Below, piece after piece: positions 1 to 8,636 of a stretch of 8,636 bases of DNA. Source of the DNA: a virus. Taxonomy: Monodnaviria > Loebvirae > Hofneiviricota > Faserviricetes > Tubulavirales > Inoviridae. Location of the stretch: the IMG/VR virus record IMGVR_UViG_2563366882_000001; one strand, given 5' to 3'. The translations under genes and the position numbers were made by a program. The notes beneath the pieces are model-generated. The model was given only the letters and a program-made list of their open reading frames with translations. It was not told where the DNA came from and ran no database searches. Every line of letters starts with the position of its first letter. Position 1 is the first letter of the stretch.

Positions 1-15
1 TACATTATGCGCACC
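1..15 (-). other. dif: Partial dif-like XerCD recombination site (candidate attL), cut by the window edge
   Basis: Seen: reverse complement of 1-15 is GGTGCGCATAATGTA, identical to the first 15 nt of the 28-bp E. coli dif (XerC arm GGTGCGCATAA plus 4 nt of central region, recalled from memory). The XerD arm would lie left of the window. Confidence 0.6.
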
Positions 16-395
16 AATGGTAAGGATGGCAGAATCTGGCGGGAATCGTTGACACTGGGCGTCAACTGGCTACTATCGACAGTGATTCAAAATCATCCGT
101 TTCTCCAAACGAATCAGAATCAAATGTCTGTCAGCAGTAAGTGAACGGCCTGACCTCACCAATCAGGCCTGTTCATCCAGTTGCAGTTGGTAAATCTGTA
201 CCTGATACATGAAACCTTCCCCAGAAATACAGCCACAATGTCAGATAAGATGAACGCTGCCGCGCCGAATCAGCTATAACGCTCAAAATGAAAACTGTAC
301 GGCTTGGCCAACCCCGGACAGCAACAAAACGAGTTTTGTCACTGACCGGAGTTTACGATAACTTCGTAAGCATTAAATTTTAGCGGCTAAAAAGT

Positions 396-644
396 TCACC
401 ACCACCATGCAAACGGCTTGTTACTGACAGGAAATGCGATACCGTCAGCATCACGACCACGCAAGACCTGATTAAGAAGCTTTCTGACTTCACGGCGCTC
501 TGGCCGGGTCATCATCATATTGCGATACCAGGACGGTGATTTATCAAACCACCTGGAACAACTGGTAAAATGTGAACCAACACGACGGTAAGACTTCATG
601 CGACCACCGGGAAGTCGATCGCGCACCCTGCTTTTTACAGACAT
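396..644 (-). CDS. Hypothetical small basic protein (82 aa), Arg/Trp-rich, ends in WWW; function unknown
   Basis: Six-frame ORF; GAGG Shine-Dalgarno about 6 nt upstream of the ATG at 644; lies between gIV and the dif-like site. I recognise no homolog. Confidence 0.4.
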   Translation of the reverse strand: MSVKSRVRDRLPGGRMKSYRRVGSHFTSCSRWFDKSPSWYRNMMMTRPERREVRKLLNQVLRGRDADGIAFPVSNKPFAWWW

Positions 645-794
645 AAAAAACCTCTAAGTAATTGAATCACCTAGAAGATGTCTTTCTGTTCATATCCTGT
701 CAGTTTTAAGGCCATATAGAGGCTCCGTGGTGAAACGTAAAATCCGGCTCTTGATGGTGCCATACCGGGGCTTAACGCACCCGCCACGGCCCCA

Positions 795-6803: not shown

Positions 6804-7250
6804 ATGGGCAACAATGAGCATGAAGTTATGGCGGACAAACAGAGAGCAGAACGTATAAAAAAGGCAATTCTGGAACACTCGACTTATGAAGAACTGGCCG
6901 AGAAGACTGGCATTAGCGTAAGTACGCTGGTCAGGATAGCGTCCGGCAAAACTGAACCTAAATTCAGCGATATAATTCAGATAGCTAAAATTACTGGCGC
7001 AGATTTGAACACCTTAGCTTATGGCTATGCTCTTGATGTTAAAGAAGAAGCTACTGAGCGAAAGCTGATAACTTCTGCGGACGGATATACTGATGAAGAA
7101 ACCACGAACGCGCATAATTTCATCGTGTGGAACATCAGAACATTGGAGAAGCAAGATATTCTGGCACTTGCAAGGCAAGTTTCTGCATTAAGTTCATATA
7201 CTTACAGTACAAAAATGTTTATGAAAAAAGCATTGTCAGGCGAAGAGTAA
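6804..7250 (+). CDS. XRE-type helix-turn-helix DNA-binding protein; probable phage repressor (148 aa)
   Basis: Residues about 26-48 (STYEELAEKTGISVSTLVRIASG) have the typical XRE/Cro-cI HTH pattern. GGAG SD upstream. Divergent from the replication gene, as rstR is from rstA in CTXphi. Confidence 0.65.
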   Translation: MGNNEHEVMADKQRAERIKKAILEHSTYEELAEKTGISVSTLVRIASGKTEPKFSDIIQIAKITGADLNTLAYGYALDVKEEATERKLITSADGYTDEETTNAHNFIVWNIRTLEKQDILALARQVSALSSYTYSTKMFMKKALSGEE

Positions 7251-7260
7251 AAAGCTAGCG

Positions 7261-7313
7261 GTCTCAGGAATGAGACTAACGTGCAGTATTACCAACACTG
7301 CACGTTCTTTATT
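7261..7313 (+). terminator. Two adjacent hairpins after the repressor-like gene; the second is a candidate intrinsic terminator
   Basis: Seen: GTCTCA-ggaa-TGAGAC (7261-7276); then a 10-bp perfect stem AACGTGCAGT (7278-7287) / ACTGCACGTT (7297-7306) with a 9-nt loop, followed by CTTTATT. Confidence 0.55.
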
Positions 7314-7348
7314 GTGCGAATTTTGAACAGTGAAAAAGGATCAAAAGG

Positions 7349-7771
7349 ATGAGTAGAAATAACGAAACAAGCGGCGTTGAACTGGTTGTCGTGGGCGTAT
7401 TTGCTTTCTGTCTGGCAGTTGTTGCCTGGCTAATGAAAACTTTCGATGTTGAATGGCAAACAGCACTGGAAACTGCGCCTGGCCTGATAGTCTGGCTGCT
7501 TGTTGTCGGTGCGGGGATCTTTTTCGGGATCAAAATGGAAACTGGCCTTATTCGCTGGGGTGCTCCACTGGCGATCGCCCTTCTGATTCCGGTATTCAAG
7601 CCAATTCTTAAGGAAGCTGCCGGAGTTCGTGAAACGGGTGGGCTGGTTTTCGATGATATGGTTTCGTGGTATGGAACTGGCTGGGGAATGTCTCTGATGT
7701 TCTTCGGGATTCTTATTGTCGGATATGGCCTGCTTTATTGGTGGCACAGAAGAAATTCATATTACTGGTAA
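7349..7771 (+). CDS. Hypothetical integral membrane protein (140 aa, about four hydrophobic helices, Trp/Tyr-rich C-terminus)
   Basis: ORF with AAAGGA SD upstream; hydrophobic segments at roughly residues 10-28, 45-61, 70-83 and 112-130. No recognised inovirus homolog. Confidence 0.6.
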   Translation: MSRNNETSGVELVVVGVFAFCLAVVAWLMKTFDVEWQTALETAPGLIVWLLVVGAGIFFGIKMETGLIRWGAPLAIALLIPVFKPILKEAAGVRETGGLVFDDMVSWYGTGWGMSLMFFGILIVGYGLLYWWHRRNSYYW

Positions 7772-7799
7772 TCAATAAAACGTAGAAGAGAGGAAACAT

Positions 7800-8075
7800 A
7801 TGAAACTGAATCCTGAGAAATACAATAGAAACATTACCCTGCTATGTCCTGTGTGCGGAAATACAGAGATGGAACACGAGGAAGAGTCTGAAGTCGTCAG
7901 ATGTGTAGGCTGCGGGAAAGAATTTACTAATGATGAGTTAATCCAAGAAAACGGGGTGAGTATTGACGCTCATGTAGATGAAATAAAAGAAGAGTTAACA
8001 AAAGACATTCAAAAACAGTTTAACGACATGCTCAAAAAGGCATTTAAGGGAAGTAAGAATATAAGGATCAAATAA
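7800..8075 (+). CDS. Hypothetical small zinc-ribbon protein (91 aa), C16-x2-C19 ... C35-x2-C38, acidic and Lys-rich
   Basis: ORF with AGGAAA SD upstream; two CxxC pairs spaced 15 residues apart. Its stop overlaps the next start (TAATG at 8073-8077). Confidence 0.6.
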   Translation: MKLNPEKYNRNITLLCPVCGNTEMEHEEESEVVRCVGCGKEFTNDELIQENGVSIDAHVDEIKEELTKDIQKQFNDMLKKAFKGSKNIRIK

Positions 8076-8554
8076 TGACAACAAGTGATGCCATCGCTTT
8101 AGCTGCGCTTGTAGTATCGATTTACACTATCATATCGTCAGAAATGAAATCGAGAAAAAGCGATAGAGAACAAAAGGTTATAAAGGATGAGCAAGACAGG
8201 TTACGTAAGTTGCTTCTGGAAAAAGAAACAAAGTCAGCAATTAATGAGATGAAAGCTGAGCTTGGTGCTCGCCTCGTAAAAATAGCCAAAAACAACTATA
8301 GGCTCAAGATATTTAATAGAGGGAGGGTTGAGGCTAAAAATATAGAGATTCATTTCCCTGATAACGATGGAAATGAATATCTTTCAATGCATGATGTAGA
8401 AGATAAATTTCCATATGAGGTATTACACCCGCAACATGGGATTGAAATTTTAGCGGGAATAAGCTTTGGAAGTAAAACTAAATACCGAATAAAACTCATA
8501 TGGGATGACAATTATAAAAGAAGAAATGAAGAGGATTTTTTCATTTCTATATAA
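8075..8554 (+). CDS. Hypothetical protein (159 aa): N-terminal hydrophobic helix, charged coiled-coil-like segment, C-terminal domain
   Basis: ORF translationally coupled to the upstream gene. Residues about 6-22 are hydrophobic (AIALAALVVSIYTIISS), followed by a K/E/R-rich region. Visibly AT-rich, unlike the structural module. Confidence 0.6.
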   Translation: MTTSDAIALAALVVSIYTIISSEMKSRKSDREQKVIKDEQDRLRKLLLEKETKSAINEMKAELGARLVKIAKNNYRLKIFNRGRVEAKNIEIHFPDNDGNEYLSMHDVEDKFPYEVLHPQHGIEILAGISFGSKTKYRIKLIWDDNYKRRNEEDFFISI

Positions 8555-8557
8555 ATT

Positions 8558-8584
8558 GGTTCGCACAATGACGTTATGCTAAAG
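8558..8584 (+). other. dif-like sequence in forward orientation (XerC-like arm, 5-bp spacer, XerD-like arm); possible attP component or chance
   Basis: Seen: GGTTCGCACAA TGACG TTATGCTAAAG versus dif GGTGCGCATAA TGTATA TTATGTTAAAT; 9/11 in each arm but the spacer is 5 bp, not 6. Confidence 0.3.
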
Positions 8585-8622
8585 AGGCCGCTGCGGGATT
8601 CGATTTTCGCAGCGGCCTTTTC
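8581..8622 (+). terminator. Strong rho-independent terminator closing the plus-strand cassette
   Basis: Seen: GC-rich 11-bp perfect stem AGGCCGCTGCG (8585-8595) / CGCAGCGGCCT (8608-8618) with a 12-nt loop, then TTTTC; an A-tract precedes it. Confidence 0.65.
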
Positions 8623-8636
8623 AACATAACGAGTCG
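8619..8636 (-). other. dif-like XerD-arm (reverse orientation) at the right edge, truncated by the window; candidate attR
   Basis: Seen: 8619-8629 TTTCAACATAA versus reverse complement of the dif XerD arm ATTTAACATAA (9/11, core AACATAA exact). Same orientation as the dif fragment at 1-15. Confidence 0.35.

What the first reader, a model, noticed from the sequence alone, without database searches (positions are those of the whole stretch)
7349..8554. Three-gene cargo cassette of unknown function beside the phage repressor
Three plus-strand genes encode a four-helix membrane protein, a CxxC-x15-CxxC zinc-ribbon protein, and a protein with an N-terminal transmembrane helix plus a coiled-coil-like segment. 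None resembles any canonical inovirus replication, coat or assembly protein that I can recall. The last two genes are translationally coupled (TAATG) and are markedly AT-rich compared with the first gene and the structural module, which suggests separately acquired cargo. The cassette sits between terminators at 7278-7313 and 8585-8622, in the position where filamentous phages carry morons (e.g. ctxAB in CTXphi). A small nucleic-acid-binding or sensor protein paired with membrane proteins is a layout seen in superinfection-exclusion, abortive-infection or toxin modules. This is the best candidate for an undescribed system in the window.
Basis: partly seen in the sequence, partly recalled or inferred. 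Interest (0 to 1): 0.75.

Follow-up and report, generated by a model that had tools for sequence, protein, structure and literature searches.

The report
Swappable two-gene cargo in filamentous prophage
The "three-gene cassette" is a conserved phage membrane gene followed by a separate, widely travelling gene pair (a small zinc-binding protein plus a membrane-anchored protein) that sits in a swap-in slot where related phages carry anti-phage genes, so the pair is a reasonable but untested candidate for a new bacterial immunity module.

Summary
The three ORFs are real and under purifying selection. The window is one complete genome unit of a dif-integrating, IKe/I2-2-like E. coli inovirus of the UPφ type. 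Its three ORFs were already published as unknown genes h3, h4 and h5.

They are not one cassette. Gene 1 (a 4-TM protein) is phage backbone: it is found in 128 of 5426 complete E. coli genomes, always upstream of variable cargo.

Genes 2 and 3 form an autonomous, translationally coupled pair. The same pair occurs in 35 of 40 species-level loci spanning several phyla. The gene-3 family has 1275 clusters at 50% identity.

The pair fills a slot with sharp boundaries (7771-7776 and 8547-8558). Sister phages carry an AbiJ-like gene, a DpnII/MboI-type nuclease gene, or other genes in that slot. Elsewhere the pair lies beside restriction-modification (R-M) genes, SIR2-STAND genes, AAA_13 genes and toxin-antitoxin (TA) genes. 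It also rides as a passenger in dif-targeting IS1202-family insertion sequences.

No homology or fold match gives a function. P2 is a zinc ribbon plus helix plus an invariant tail. P3 is a TM helix, a long charged helix and an Ig-like sandwich.

Best guess (about 0.45-0.5): a membrane-acting defence or abortive-infection module. The "terminator" at 8585-8622 is part of a CTXφ-type attP.

The parts
6804..7250 (+). HTH (Cro/CI-type) phage repressor, first gene of the plus-strand (lysogeny-side) gene set
   Evidence: Pfam HTH_3 at 1.4e-09 and phrog_3557 transcriptional regulator at 7e-74. Sister phages replace it with unrelated 60-, 71- or 89-aa regulators while gene 1 is kept.
7260..7313 (+). 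Two RNA hairpins (7260-7277 and 7278-7306) followed by GUUCUUUAUU. This is a plausible, probably leaky, intrinsic terminator between the repressor and gene 1.
   Evidence: RNA fold -23.1 kcal/mol, z -3.1. The simple terminator scan did not call it because the loop exceeds 8 nt. Similarity to prophages with a different regulator starts at 7261-7265.
7349..7771 (+). Gene 1 (h3): a 140-aa inner-membrane protein with 4 TM segments. It is a phage backbone gene, not cargo.
   Evidence: phrog_4174 at 1.5e-85, with no Pfam, NCBIfam or PADLOC hit. Four hydrophobic spans. Found in 128/5426 E. coli genomes versus 28 for genes 2-3. Homologues occur only in UPφ-like prophages or dif-region remnants. dN/dS 0.03-0.10.
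7772..7799 (+). Left breakpoint of the cargo slot, followed by the ribosome-binding site of gene 2
   Evidence: Sister prophages diverge at 7771-7776. The Serratia plasmid copy of the pair starts matching at 7794. This stretch has no secondary structure.
7800..8075 (+). Gene 2 (h4, P2): a 91-aa cytosolic zinc-ribbon protein. It has CPxC-x15-CxxC, then a long helix, then an invariant C-terminal tail F-K-G-S-K-N-I-R-I-K.
   Evidence: NCBIfam ECs_2282_CxxC at 65.2 bits (cut-off 37) and phrog_4852 at 8e-18. Alignment invariants Y8, C16, P17, C19, G20, C35, C38, K86, N87, I88. AF2 pLDDT 78: ribbon 14-43, helix 44-83, tail of low confidence. Only generic Zn-ribbon matches in PDB.
8075..8554 (+). Gene 3 (h5, P3): a 159-aa protein with an N-terminal TM anchor, a long charged helix and a C-terminal Ig-like beta-sandwich. 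It is translationally coupled to gene 2.
8558..8584 (+). dif-like site 1 (XerC-arm-like GGTTCGCACAA, a spacer, XerD-arm-like TTATGCTAAAG). This is the right breakpoint of the cargo slot.
   Evidence: Read from the sequence. Similarity to all sister prophages and to the IS-borne copies resumes at 8547-8558.
8585..8622 (+). GC-rich hairpin (stems 8585-8595 and 8608-8618) followed by TTTTC. It forms the tip of the folded attP and may also act as a terminator.
   Evidence: RNA fold z -7.4. It lies at the apex of the single-stranded DNA forked hairpin.
8620..8636 (-). First half of dif-like site 2 (inverted): XerD-arm-like TTCAACATAA plus part of the central region. It continues across the circular junction.
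   Evidence: In UM146 the same junction reads ...TTCAACATAACGAGTCG|TACATTATGCGCACC.
1..15 (-). Second half of dif-like site 2: the XerC arm (reverse complement of GGTGCGCATAATG)
   Evidence: Window start is tacattatgcgcacc. A perfect dif abuts the same sequence at the other prophage end in UM146. Sites 1 and 2 pair in (+) ssDNA at -29.1 kcal/mol, z -5.6.

Best explanation
The region holds two different things.

(1) Gene 1 is a conserved 4-TM inner-membrane protein of this dif-integrating inovirus lineage. It is expressed from the repressor side of the phage. It marks the left edge of a cargo slot.

(2) Genes 2-3 are a self-contained, horizontally mobile two-gene module occupying that slot. P2 is a small cytosolic zinc-ribbon/helix protein. 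P3 is tethered to the inner membrane by one N-terminal helix, and its charged helix and Ig-like domain face the cytoplasm.

Shown:
- the pairing of the two genes;
- their mobility;
- the slot boundaries;
- the protein architectures;
- the defence-rich neighbourhoods.

Inferred (positive-inside rule, translational coupling, invariant P2 tail):
- P2 and P3 form a membrane-bound complex.

Inferred with about 0.45 confidence:
- The complex is an anti-phage or anti-MGE module of the abortive-infection type.
- P2 acts as the sensor or regulator, by nucleic-acid or protein binding through the ribbon.
- P3 acts as the effector. It would oligomerise through its helix and TM segment to damage or gate the membrane.
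- The lysogen, or the host of the IS, plasmid or ICE that carries the pair, is thereby protected.
For: Pair as a unit:
- Overlap of -1 or -4 nt, or a gap of at most 5 nt, with a 2xCxxC ORF upstream of the P3 homologue in 35 of 40 GTDB-species loci.
- These loci span alpha-, beta-, gamma- and delta-proteobacteria, Bacteroidota, Coriobacteriia and a Methanoculleus MAG.
- The same pairing is seen in every context read.

Mobility:
- 82% nt identity on a Serratia plasmid, from the RBS to the attP hairpin.
- Passenger of xrs-targeting IS1202-family IS.
- A near-identical copy in an ICE-like element across genera.

Slot:
- In sister phages the same slot holds AbiJ_NTD4+DUF7014 (PADLOC PDC-S32).
- It also holds a DpnII/MboI REase-domain protein (PADLOC Aga_Helical-REase at 1e-34) with DUF6953.
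- Another occupant is a 250-aa protein with weak PD-T4-6 similarity.

Neighbours of the pair elsewhere:
- SIR2-STAND + type I R-M + AAA_13.
- Type I R-M + Mrr in a P4-like island.
- AIPR and other conflict genes.
- ParDE, TacAT, NACHT and DUF4238 on Klebsiella plasmids.
- SNF2/MTase/Res + ArdA + integrase.
- A SIR2-like gene.
- AAA_13 + Hypoth_Ymh.
- Among 143 neighbouring proteins: AriA x3, MADS x2-3, PD-Lambda-3_B x2, Old x2, type I R-M, integrases x5.

Architecture:
-.
- Weak holin-PHROG similarity of the P3 N-terminus (E 0.003).
Against: - There is no functional evidence of any kind.
- P3 has no hit in PADLOC, and P2 has only Zn-ribbon-level hits.
- No fold match suggests an activity.
- The defence association is guilt by association. 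It was not tested against a matched control set. Some contexts have no defence gene nearby (Pragia; Agarivorans).
- No P2-P3 complex model could be computed.
- Orientation in the membrane is inferred only from charge distribution.
- About 24 E. coli records carry a related P3-like gene whose ZnR partner is reduced to its last 7 codons. So P3 can persist alone. This fits poorly with a tightly controlled toxic effector unless that copy is silent.
Confidence: 0.48

Rival explanations
1. Genes 2-3 are an addiction (toxin-antitoxin-like) module. Its main role is to stabilise the element that carries it: an inovirus that can be lost when episomal, an IS, a plasmid or an ICE. P3 would be a membrane toxin and P2 its labile antitoxin or autoregulator.
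For: - The small upstream gene overlaps a larger downstream gene, which is typical type II TA geometry.
- The pair is carried on plasmids, IS and ICE next to other TA pairs.
- P2 weakly resembles the zinc-ribbon part of the MqsA antitoxin (18.9 bits, E 0.001).
- The related phage YpfΦ is described as unstable when episomal (PMC4266046).
Against: - The MqsA hit is far below the cut-off (61.8 bits), and P2 has no HTH.
- A P3-like gene persists intact without its ZnR partner in about 24 E. coli records.
- P3 has no similarity to any known toxin.
- TA and abortive-infection roles are not mutually exclusive.
Confidence: 0.2
2. The pair, possibly together with gene 1, is a superinfection-exclusion or self-regulation device specific to filamentous phage biology. 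It would block entry (pilus or TolQRA step), replication or extrusion of related inoviruses.
For: - It is located on the repressor side and so presumably expressed in lysogens.
- Membrane location is suited to the entry or assembly steps.
- YpfΦ lysogens show partial protection against superinfection (PMC4266046).
- Gene 1 is strictly phage-linked.
Against: - The pair is mostly found outside inoviruses. It occurs in organisms and elements with no filamentous phage: Bacteroidota, Coriobacteriia, an archaeal MAG, ICEs and IS.
- Only about 22-25% of phages of this group carry it.
- This reading remains plausible for gene 1 alone.
Confidence: 0.12
3. All three genes form a single functional three-component system acquired together.
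For: The three genes are adjacent, share a strand and have short intergenic gaps. All three are present together in 28 E. coli genomes.
Against: - Gene 1 occurs in 128 genomes and the pair in only 28.
- Gene 1 precedes at least five unrelated cargos.
- The pair occurs without gene 1 in all non-phage contexts.
- There is a sharp similarity breakpoint at the gene-1 stop codon.
- The composition differs.
Confidence: 0.04
4. The pair is a host-fitness or virulence 'moron' acting on host physiology (envelope, stress, colonisation) rather than on other mobile elements. This would parallel ctxAB in CTXφ or the modest fitness effect of YpfΦ/CUS-1.
For: - It sits in an accessory region next to attP, as in other integrating inoviruses (PMC4266046 and PMC7307601).
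- The listed E. coli carriers are mostly human isolates, and the UPφ paper links its main clade to urine/UTI isolates.
Against: - The family is spread across environmental bacteria of many phyla and an archaeal MAG.
- Neither protein has a secretion signal or a toxin or adhesin domain.
- Neighbours are defence and mobility genes rather than virulence genes.
Confidence: 0.08

Closest known systems
h3, h4 and h5 ORFs of UPφ901-type filamentous prophages (Shapiro & Putonti 2020, PMC7307601)
   Same: - Three reverse-oriented ORFs next to dif in an IKe/I2-2-like, dif-integrating E. coli inovirus.
- The first is nearly universal (221/229) and the other two occur in about a quarter (56-57/229). This matches 128 versus 28 genomes here.
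- Strain ECONIH2, discussed in that paper, is among the hits.
   Different: - The paper leaves them as hypothetical genes found only in related prophages.
- Here the h4/h5 pair is shown to be a widespread autonomous module outside phages. The slot is shown to hold defence-type genes and to be shared with an IS family.
- The window lacks homologues of the two accessory genes that UM146 carries beyond gene IV, so strict identity with the 'UPφ' definition is uncertain.
Lambda cI-rexA-rexB arrangement (own knowledge)
   Same: Exclusion genes sit directly downstream of the prophage repressor. They would therefore be expressed in lysogens, with a membrane component and a cytosolic partner.
   Different: There is no sequence or fold relationship. 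RexB is the 4-TM component, whereas here the effector candidate has one TM and an Ig-like domain. The promoter and terminator logic here is unverified.
Defence hotspots of P2/P4-type prophages and satellites, and defence/TA cargo of Pf inoviruses (own knowledge for P2/P4; PMC11341870, PMC11878078 and PMC12328805 titles/abstracts)
   Same: A fixed position in a prophage with conserved flanks holds mutually exclusive small defence-like cargos.
   Different: The host element is a Lineavirus-like inovirus integrated by XerCD. The right flank of the slot is the attP itself. The same cargos and flanks are shared with an insertion-sequence family.
ISKpn21-like passenger-carrying IS of the IS1202 family, ISAba32 subgroup (bioRxiv 10.1101/2022.12.17.520857; PMC10132070)
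   Same: - IS with TGT termini, a 5-bp duplication and the left end 5 bp from the XerC arm of a Xer site. All of this is seen here on plasmids and at chromosomal dif.
- The paper states that several members carry unrelated passenger genes.
   Different: - The window contains no transposase.
- The paper excerpts read do not describe the passengers, or that the passenger region ends with a copy of the inovirus attP half (site 1, the hairpin and a XerD arm) just inside IRR.
Type II TA with zinc-ribbon antitoxin (MqsRA) (NCBIfam TIGR03830; own knowledge for gene order)
   Same: A small Cys4 zinc-ribbon protein is encoded in an overlapping two-gene operon.
   Different: The hit is sub-threshold (18.9 versus 61.8 bits). 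P2 has no HTH domain. The partner is a membrane protein, not an RNase. In mqsRA the toxin gene comes first.
TM-plus-beta-domain membrane effectors of signalling defence systems, e.g. CBASS Cap15 (own knowledge)
   Same: An N-terminal membrane anchor is joined to a small C-terminal beta-rich domain that could trigger oligomerisation.
   Different: There is no homology. No cyclase or other signal generator is nearby. P3's domain is an Ig-like sandwich with generic matches only.
CTXφ attP and the ctxAB moron (PMC4266046; own knowledge)
   Same: Two inverted dif-like sites fold in (+) ssDNA into a forked hairpin. Accessory genes sit next to the attachment site.
   Different: The cargo lies on the repressor-side strand, not at the end of the morphogenesis operon. 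It is unrelated to toxins.

Membership tests
ECs_2282 family putative zinc-binding protein (NCBIfam NF047912) | Whole-protein score above the curated cut-off of the family HMM | tested here: met
   P2 scores 65.2 bits against a cut-off of 37 (E 3.6e-18). RefSeq annotates the identical gene in UM146 with this name. The family has no assigned function.
PHROG families 4174 / 4852 / 6723 | Significant match to the family profile | tested here: met
   E-values are 1.5e-85, 8.1e-18 and 1.6e-96. All three families are annotated 'unknown function'.
UPφ viruses (Shapiro & Putonti 2020) | Lineavirus (IKe/I2-2)-like morphogenesis genes | tested here: met
   Gene I shows 76.9% nt identity to I2-2. The full gII, gV, gVII/IX, gVIII, gIII, gVI, gI, gIV order is present.
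UPφ viruses (Shapiro & Putonti 2020) | A dif-like site and integration at chromosomal dif | tested here: met
   The window is bounded by dif-like half sites. The near-identical prophage in UM146 abuts a perfect dif next to hipBA.
UPφ viruses (Shapiro & Putonti 2020) | Shared accessory genes h1 and h2 beyond gene IV | tested here: inconclusive
   The two small genes that UM146 carries there have no tblastn match in the window. The window instead has an 82-aa ORF at 396-644 that it shares with strain MS8345. The UPφ901 h1/h2 sequences themselves were not available.
UPφ viruses (Shapiro & Putonti 2020) | h3 nearly universal, h4/h5 in about a quarter of phages | tested here: met
   Gene 1 is in 128 and genes 2-3 in 28 of 5426 complete E. 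coli genomes. This compares with 221 and 56-57 of 229.
Known or candidate anti-phage defence systems (PADLOC-DB v2.0.0) | Match of the component proteins to a system's HMMs | tested here: not met
   P1 and P3 have no hit at E <= 1. P2 has only partial zinc-ribbon-level hits: PDC-S64 at 4e-07 over 59 of 339 positions, HEC-08, and PDC-M14A at E 0.002.
Defence-island residents (guilt by association criterion) | Homologues recurrently flanked by known defence genes in unrelated genomes | tested here: inconclusive
   Defence neighbours are seen in most contexts read. They are also seen among 143 neighbouring proteins. No background control was run, and two contexts have no such neighbours.
Type II toxin-antitoxin module | Two small overlapping genes, antitoxin upstream | tested here: met
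   There is a 1-nt overlap in the window, and an overlap of -1 or -4 in most homologous loci.
Type II toxin-antitoxin module | Recognisable toxin fold/family and a DNA-binding antitoxin | tested here: not met
   P3 matches no toxin family or fold. P2 has no HTH, RHH or AbrB domain, and its MqsA-family hit is 18.9 bits against a 61.8-bit cut-off.
Type II toxin-antitoxin module | The toxin gene cannot persist without the antitoxin | tested here: not met
   A UPφ variant (MS8345 type, about 24 records at >=95% identity) keeps an intact 155-aa P3-like ORF. Only the last 7 codons of the ZnR gene remain. Expression status is unknown.
Type II toxin-antitoxin module | Toxicity of one component neutralised by the other | not testable with these tools
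   Requires expression experiments.
Holins | Significant match to a holin family and association with an endolysin | tested here: not met
   There is only a marginal match of P3 residues 1-63 to phrog_1350 (E 0.003). There is no lysis gene in the window, and inoviruses do not lyse their hosts.
Canonical inovirus replication, coat or assembly proteins | Match to Pfam or PHROG families of gII, gV, gVII, gIX, gVIII, gIII, gVI, gI or gIV | tested here: not met
   None of the three proteins has such a match. A complete set of those genes is present elsewhere in the window.
CTXφ-type attP (IMEX using folded ssDNA) | Two dif-like sites in inverted orientation that pair in the (+) strand around an unpaired central region | tested here: met
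   The sites are at 8558-8584 and at 8620-8636 plus 1-15. The ssDNA fold is -29.1 kcal/mol, z -5.6, and 0 of 200 shuffles fold as well. Recombination itself was not tested.
IS1202 family, ISAba32 subgroup (for the plasmid- and dif-borne IS that carry the same cargo) | TGT termini, 5-6 bp target duplication, left end 5-6 bp from the XerC arm of a Xer site | tested here: met
   Three independent copies have a Xer site followed by 5 bp and then a TGTAG... left end. One copy is flanked by the duplication AACAT. The criteria come from bioRxiv 10.1101/2022.12.17.520857.

The most novel reading that the evidence does not exclude
The ZnR/membrane-Ig pair is a previously unrecognised, phylogenetically broad anti-phage (abortive-infection) system. 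In addition, the slot it occupies belongs to a shared cassette pool. Small defence modules in that pool are exchanged between two kinds of Xer-site-dependent mobile elements that meet at dif: inoviruses and IS1202-family insertion sequences. The exchange would use common flanking sequences, namely a left hairpin element and the attP half-site. This would amount to an integron-like cargo market built on the chromosome-dimer resolution site.
Probability: 0.3. Interest if true: 0.75.

Novelty: new variant of a known kind. Interest (0 to 1): 0.55.

Why it matters
- If the pair is a defence or abortive-infection module, it adds a very compact system (about 250 codons). It has no enzymatic domain, and its gene-3 family comprises more than a thousand sequence clusters. 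It would be a tractable model for how a membrane-tethered non-enzymatic effector is triggered.
- It would also show that Lineavirus-like E. coli inoviruses act as carriers of host immunity genes. These phages are common in the clinical (UTI-associated) isolates studied by Shapiro & Putonti.
- The link to dif-targeting insertion sequences suggests a concrete route by which small cargo genes move between phages, plasmids and the chromosome terminus.
- It gives a testable explanation for the variable 'accessory ORFs' reported next to dif in UPφ, CUS-1 and YpfΦ.

Tried and rejected
- Profile searches of all three proteins in Pfam, PHROGs, NCBIfam and PADLOC gave family names but no function.
- PDB sequence searches with profiles of P2 and P3 gave only generic zinc ribbons and chance hits.
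- The AlphaFold database library was not available.
- tblastn of P1 and P3 against 50,697 deposited phage genomes found nothing. Megablast of the whole window against that collection matched only a gene I segment of I2-2.
- Literature searches found nothing for ECs_2282, the RefSeq protein accessions or the PHROG numbers.
- Rfam found no RNA family in the window.
- The promoter scan found no sigma-70-like site on the + strand upstream of any of the four + strand genes. Transcription units therefore remain inferred.
- I considered that the cargo is bounded by Xer sites on both sides, like Acinetobacter dif modules. I rejected this because there is no dif-like sequence at the left boundary.
- I considered that the plasmid copies are decayed prophages. 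I rejected this because the cargo lies between the bona fide left and right ends of an IS flanked by a 5-bp duplication.
- I could not model a P2-P3 complex.
- I could not derive a convincing sequence of events for how the IS came to contain half of the phage attP.
Full report
**What the window is.** The window is one complete genome unit (8636 nt) of a filamentous prophage.
- The minus strand carries the full inovirus set in canonical order: gII, gV, small coat genes, gVIII, gIII, gVI, gI/Zot and the gIV secretin.
- The plus strand carries an HTH repressor followed by the three ORFs of the finding.
- Gene I is 77% identical in DNA to phage I2-2.
- The window begins with the XerC arm of dif and ends in a XerD-arm-like sequence.
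- In E. coli UM146 a 99.6% identical copy of the three genes lies in a prophage between a perfect dif and hipBA.
- This matches the 'UPφ' group of dif-integrating, IKe/I2-2-like phages described by Shapiro & Putonti (PMC7307601).
- Those authors noted three reverse-oriented ORFs next to dif: h3 in 221 of 229 phages, and h4 and h5 in 56-57 of 229. All are of unknown function, and other phages have 'other ORFs in these positions'.
- The finding therefore concerns published but uncharacterised ORFs.

**Checking the observation.**
- The three ORFs are as described.
- Gene 1 has four hydrophobic spans. Gene 2 has none and carries CPVC-x15-CVGC. Gene 3 has one N-terminal span.
- Genes 2 and 3 overlap in TAATG.
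- All three evolve under strong purifying selection, with dN/dS of 0.02-0.10 against orthologues at 73-89% identity.
- Both flanking hairpins are real.
- The compositional claim needs correcting. Genes 2-3 (37% and 35% GC) resemble the structural genes (36-44%). Gene 1 (48%) is the outlier.

**The three genes are not one unit.**
- Alignment with sister prophages shows similarity running from 7261 to the gene-1 stop codon (7771-7776). It then breaks and resumes at 8547-8558.
- Between those points, different phages carry different genes:
  - a DpnII/MboI-type REase-domain protein plus DUF6953;
  - an AbiJ_NTD4+DUF7014 protein (the 'STM4504/CBY_0614 family');
  - a 250-aa protein;
  - a 155-aa plus 123-aa pair;
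  - in Yersinia enterocolitica, three other ORFs.
- Gene 1 is present in 128 of 5426 complete E. coli genomes. Genes 2-3 are present in 28.
- Gene 1 is retained behind four unrelated regulators: the 148-aa HTH here, and 60-, 71- and 89-aa proteins elsewhere.
- Its homologues (down to 51% identity) are confined to such prophages or dif-region remnants.
- Gene 1 is thus a backbone gene marking the left edge of a cargo slot. Its own role is unknown. A role in superinfection exclusion at the inner membrane is a low-confidence inference.

**Genes 2-3 are an autonomous, widely distributed pair.**
- A scan of one genome per species found 40 loci encoding a P3 relative.
- In 35 of them a roughly 90-aa ORF with two CxxC motifs lies immediately upstream, overlapping by 1 or 4 nt or separated by a few bases.
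- These include alpha-, beta-, gamma- and delta-proteobacteria, Bacteroidota, Coriobacteriia and a Methanoculleus MAG.
- Every context retrieved by exact-protein look-up shows the same pairing.
- A profile of P3 finds 1275 clusters (50% identity representatives) at E <= 1e-3, and 468 at E <= 1e-10.
- The 150 best are nearly all 145-165 aa, with no domain fusions.
- No Pfam family covers P3. P2 belongs to the function-less NCBIfam family ECs_2282.

**What the proteins look like.**
- P3 (AF2, pLDDT 83) is a continuous helix over residues 3-59, then an eight-stranded Ig-like sandwich. The helix comprises a TM segment at about 2-24 and then a highly charged stretch with invariant L46, L48, K50 and E51.
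- The cluster of K/R residues just after the TM segment predicts that the bulk of the protein is cytoplasmic. This is an inference.
- P2 (pLDDT 78) is a Cys4 zinc ribbon, a 40-residue helix and a low-confidence tail. The tail sequence F-K-G-S-K-N-I-R-I-K is essentially invariant across the family.
- PDB searches return only ribosomal or transcription-factor zinc ribbons.
- Neither protein has an enzymatic signature.
- Translational coupling, the shared compartment and the invariant tail suggest a P2-P3 complex at the membrane. This could not be modelled.

**The company the pair keeps.**
- In the phage, the slot's alternative occupants hit defence-related profiles: Aga_Helical-REase at 1e-34, PDC-S32/AbiJ N-terminal domain, and a weak PD-T4-6 match.
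- Elsewhere the pair lies next to the following:
  - SIR2-STAND, type I R-M and AAA_13 genes;
  - type I R-M and Mrr in a P4-like island;
  - AIPR and other conflict-system genes;
  - ParDE, TacAT, NACHT and DUF4238 genes on Klebsiella plasmids;
  - an SNF2/methylase/Res cluster with ArdA and an integrase;
  - a SIR2-like gene;
  - an AAA_13 plus Hypoth_Ymh pair in an ICE-like element found nearly identical in several genera.
- Among 143 neighbouring proteins from 22 dereplicated loci, PADLOC hits included AriA (3), MADS components (2-3), PD-Lambda-3_B (2), Old (2) and type I R-M. Pfam found five integrases.
- I had no matched control, and two contexts are bland. The association is suggestive, not proven.
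- PADLOC itself has no model for P3 and only ribbon-level hits for P2.

**Most likely function.**
- I commit to a membrane-acting defence or abortive-infection module. P2 would be the sensor or regulator and P3 the effector. Confidence is about 0.45-0.5.
- A pure addiction (TA) role is the main rival (0.2).
- One observation bears on that rival. A related three-gene variant exists (ZnR, a 155-aa P3-like protein and a 123-127-aa phrog_22661 protein).
- In one phage lineage (about 24 E. coli records) the ZnR gene of this variant is reduced to its last seven codons, while the P3-like ORF stays intact.
- This argues against P2 being an indispensable antitoxin, unless that copy is silent.
- Inovirus-specific exclusion (0.12) is hard to reconcile with the pair's wide distribution outside inoviruses. 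It remains reasonable for gene 1.

**The 3' 'terminator' and the attachment site.**
- Immediately after gene 3 lies a dif-like site (8558-8584), followed by the GC-rich hairpin.
- A second, inverted dif-like site then spans the circular junction (8620-8636 plus 1-15).
- In (+) single-stranded DNA the two sites pair into a forked hairpin with an unpaired centre (-29.1 kcal/mol, z -5.6).
- This is the layout described for CTXφ and proposed for YpfΦ (PMC4266046).

**An unexpected link to insertion sequences.**
- The last roughly 75 nt of the slot (site 1, the hairpin and a XerD arm) occurs at 90-100% identity on hundreds of enterobacterial plasmids.
- There it lies just inside the right inverted repeat of an IS annotated 'ISNCY family transposase'.
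- That IS has TGT ends, a 5-bp duplication (AACAT) and a left end exactly 5 bp from the XerC arm of a plasmid Xer site.
- These are the hallmarks of the ISAba32 subgroup of the IS1202 family. Some of its members (ISKpn21 and others) are reported to carry unrelated passenger genes (bioRxiv 10.1101/2022.12.17.520857).
- Between transposase and right end, these IS carry the same cargos as the phage:
  - the ZnR/P3 pair (Serratia, 82% nt identity);
  - the three-gene variant (Klebsiella and E. coli plasmids);
  - the AbiJ-like gene;
  - in one copy, an ASCH gene.
- A left-flank hairpin element (GGTAAAGTTCGGGTGTCACAGAACCCCGAACCGC) is also shared between IS and phages.
- In E. coli PK5 such an IS sits at chromosomal dif beside hipA, exactly where the phages integrate.
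- Phage and IS thus meet at the same site and share flanks, which offers a route for cargo exchange. The actual mechanism and direction remain unexplained.

**Verdict.** The ORFs were already recorded as unknowns. What is new here:
- the dissection into a backbone gene plus a mobile pair;
- the breadth of the pair's family;
- the defence-type nature of the slot;
- the sharing of that slot with dif-targeting IS.

Function remains untested.

Noticed in passing
window 8558-8636 plus 1-15: The 'downstream terminator' is the tip of a CTXφ-type attP. Two inverted dif-like sites pair in (+) ssDNA into a forked hairpin (z -5.6). The window is cut at the Xer exchange point, so it is exactly one phage genome unit.
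   Followed up: yes
L002 1290-4135; L003 4385-6900; L004 6090-9030 and 12860-15110; L007 6116-9030; L067; L068 4000-7000: IS1202-family (ISAba32-subgroup, 'ISNCY') insertion sequences sit 5 bp from plasmid or chromosomal Xer sites. Between transposase and right end they carry the same cargos as the phage slot: the ZnR/P3 pair, its three-gene variant, the AbiJ-like gene and an ASCH gene. They also carry a 75-nt copy of the phage attP half. How the IS acquired it is unexplained.
   Followed up: partly
L002 2957-2990; L017 2031-2064; L019 2024-2057; L021 8617-8650; L025 6882-6915 (absent from the window): A conserved hairpin-forming element (GGTAAAGTTCGGGTGTCACAGAACCCCGAACCGC) marks the left edge of the cargo in some phages and in the IS. 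In two other phages it lies upstream of gene 1. There is no Rfam match and its role is unknown.
   Followed up: partly
L017 2012-3007; L007 7731-8900; L067 3248-4398; L068 5748-6898: A second subfamily of the module has a third gene (123-127 aa, phrog_22661). In one UPφ lineage its ZnR gene is truncated to the last 7 codons (…SKHIRVK*), while the P3-like ORF remains intact.
   Followed up: partly
window 6804-7250 versus L001 11811-11993, L021 8388-8603 and L025 6599-6868: The regulator upstream of gene 1 is swapped among sister phages (148-aa HTH; unrelated 60-, 71- and 89-aa proteins), while the sequence from 7261 onward is conserved. This suggests exchangeable immunity types, like the rstR alleles of CTXφ.
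   Followed up: partly
window 42-790: The other accessory region, between gene IV and dif, is also variable. The window lacks the 102-aa and 77-aa genes that UM146 has there. It has instead an 82-aa basic ORF (396-644, minus strand, 50% GC) shared with strain MS8345, with no family assignment beyond a weak PHROG hit.
   Followed up: partly
NZ_CP092647.1 (E. coli EC5502), hits H7/H85/H94: This genome reports 16 separate places matching the cassette. That is far more than the tandem doubles to quadruples described for such prophages. It may be a large tandem array, dispersed copies or an assembly artefact.
   Followed up: no
L010 4868-7300; L062 2736-3767; L063 1569-2591: In two unrelated contexts a SIR2-domain gene lies directly downstream of the pair, on the same strand with a short gap. 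In one context it is fused to a STAND NTPase. This hints that the pair may sometimes work with, or be co-selected with, NAD-depleting effectors.
   Followed up: no
L030-L039, L061: A nearly identical copy of the pair (43% identical to the window's P3) is found in Variovorax, Hydrogenophaga, Xenophilus, Stutzerimonas, and in Rhizobiaceae, Lysobacterales and 'Bacteroidetes' MAG contigs. It lies beside ParB-like, DUF932 and DUF2958 genes. This indicates recent spread on a broad-host-range ICE-like element.
   Followed up: partly
L022 (JARKOR010000214.1): A contig binned as 'Candidatus Nanosynbacter' carries a 99% identical copy of the E. coli pair. This is almost certainly a mis-binned enterobacterial contig.
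   Followed up: no
window 7430-7747 and 7309-7599, minus strand: Long antisense ORFs (105 and 96 aa) overlap gene 1. They are most simply a by-product of its high GC and codon pattern, and no evidence of coding was sought.
   Followed up: no
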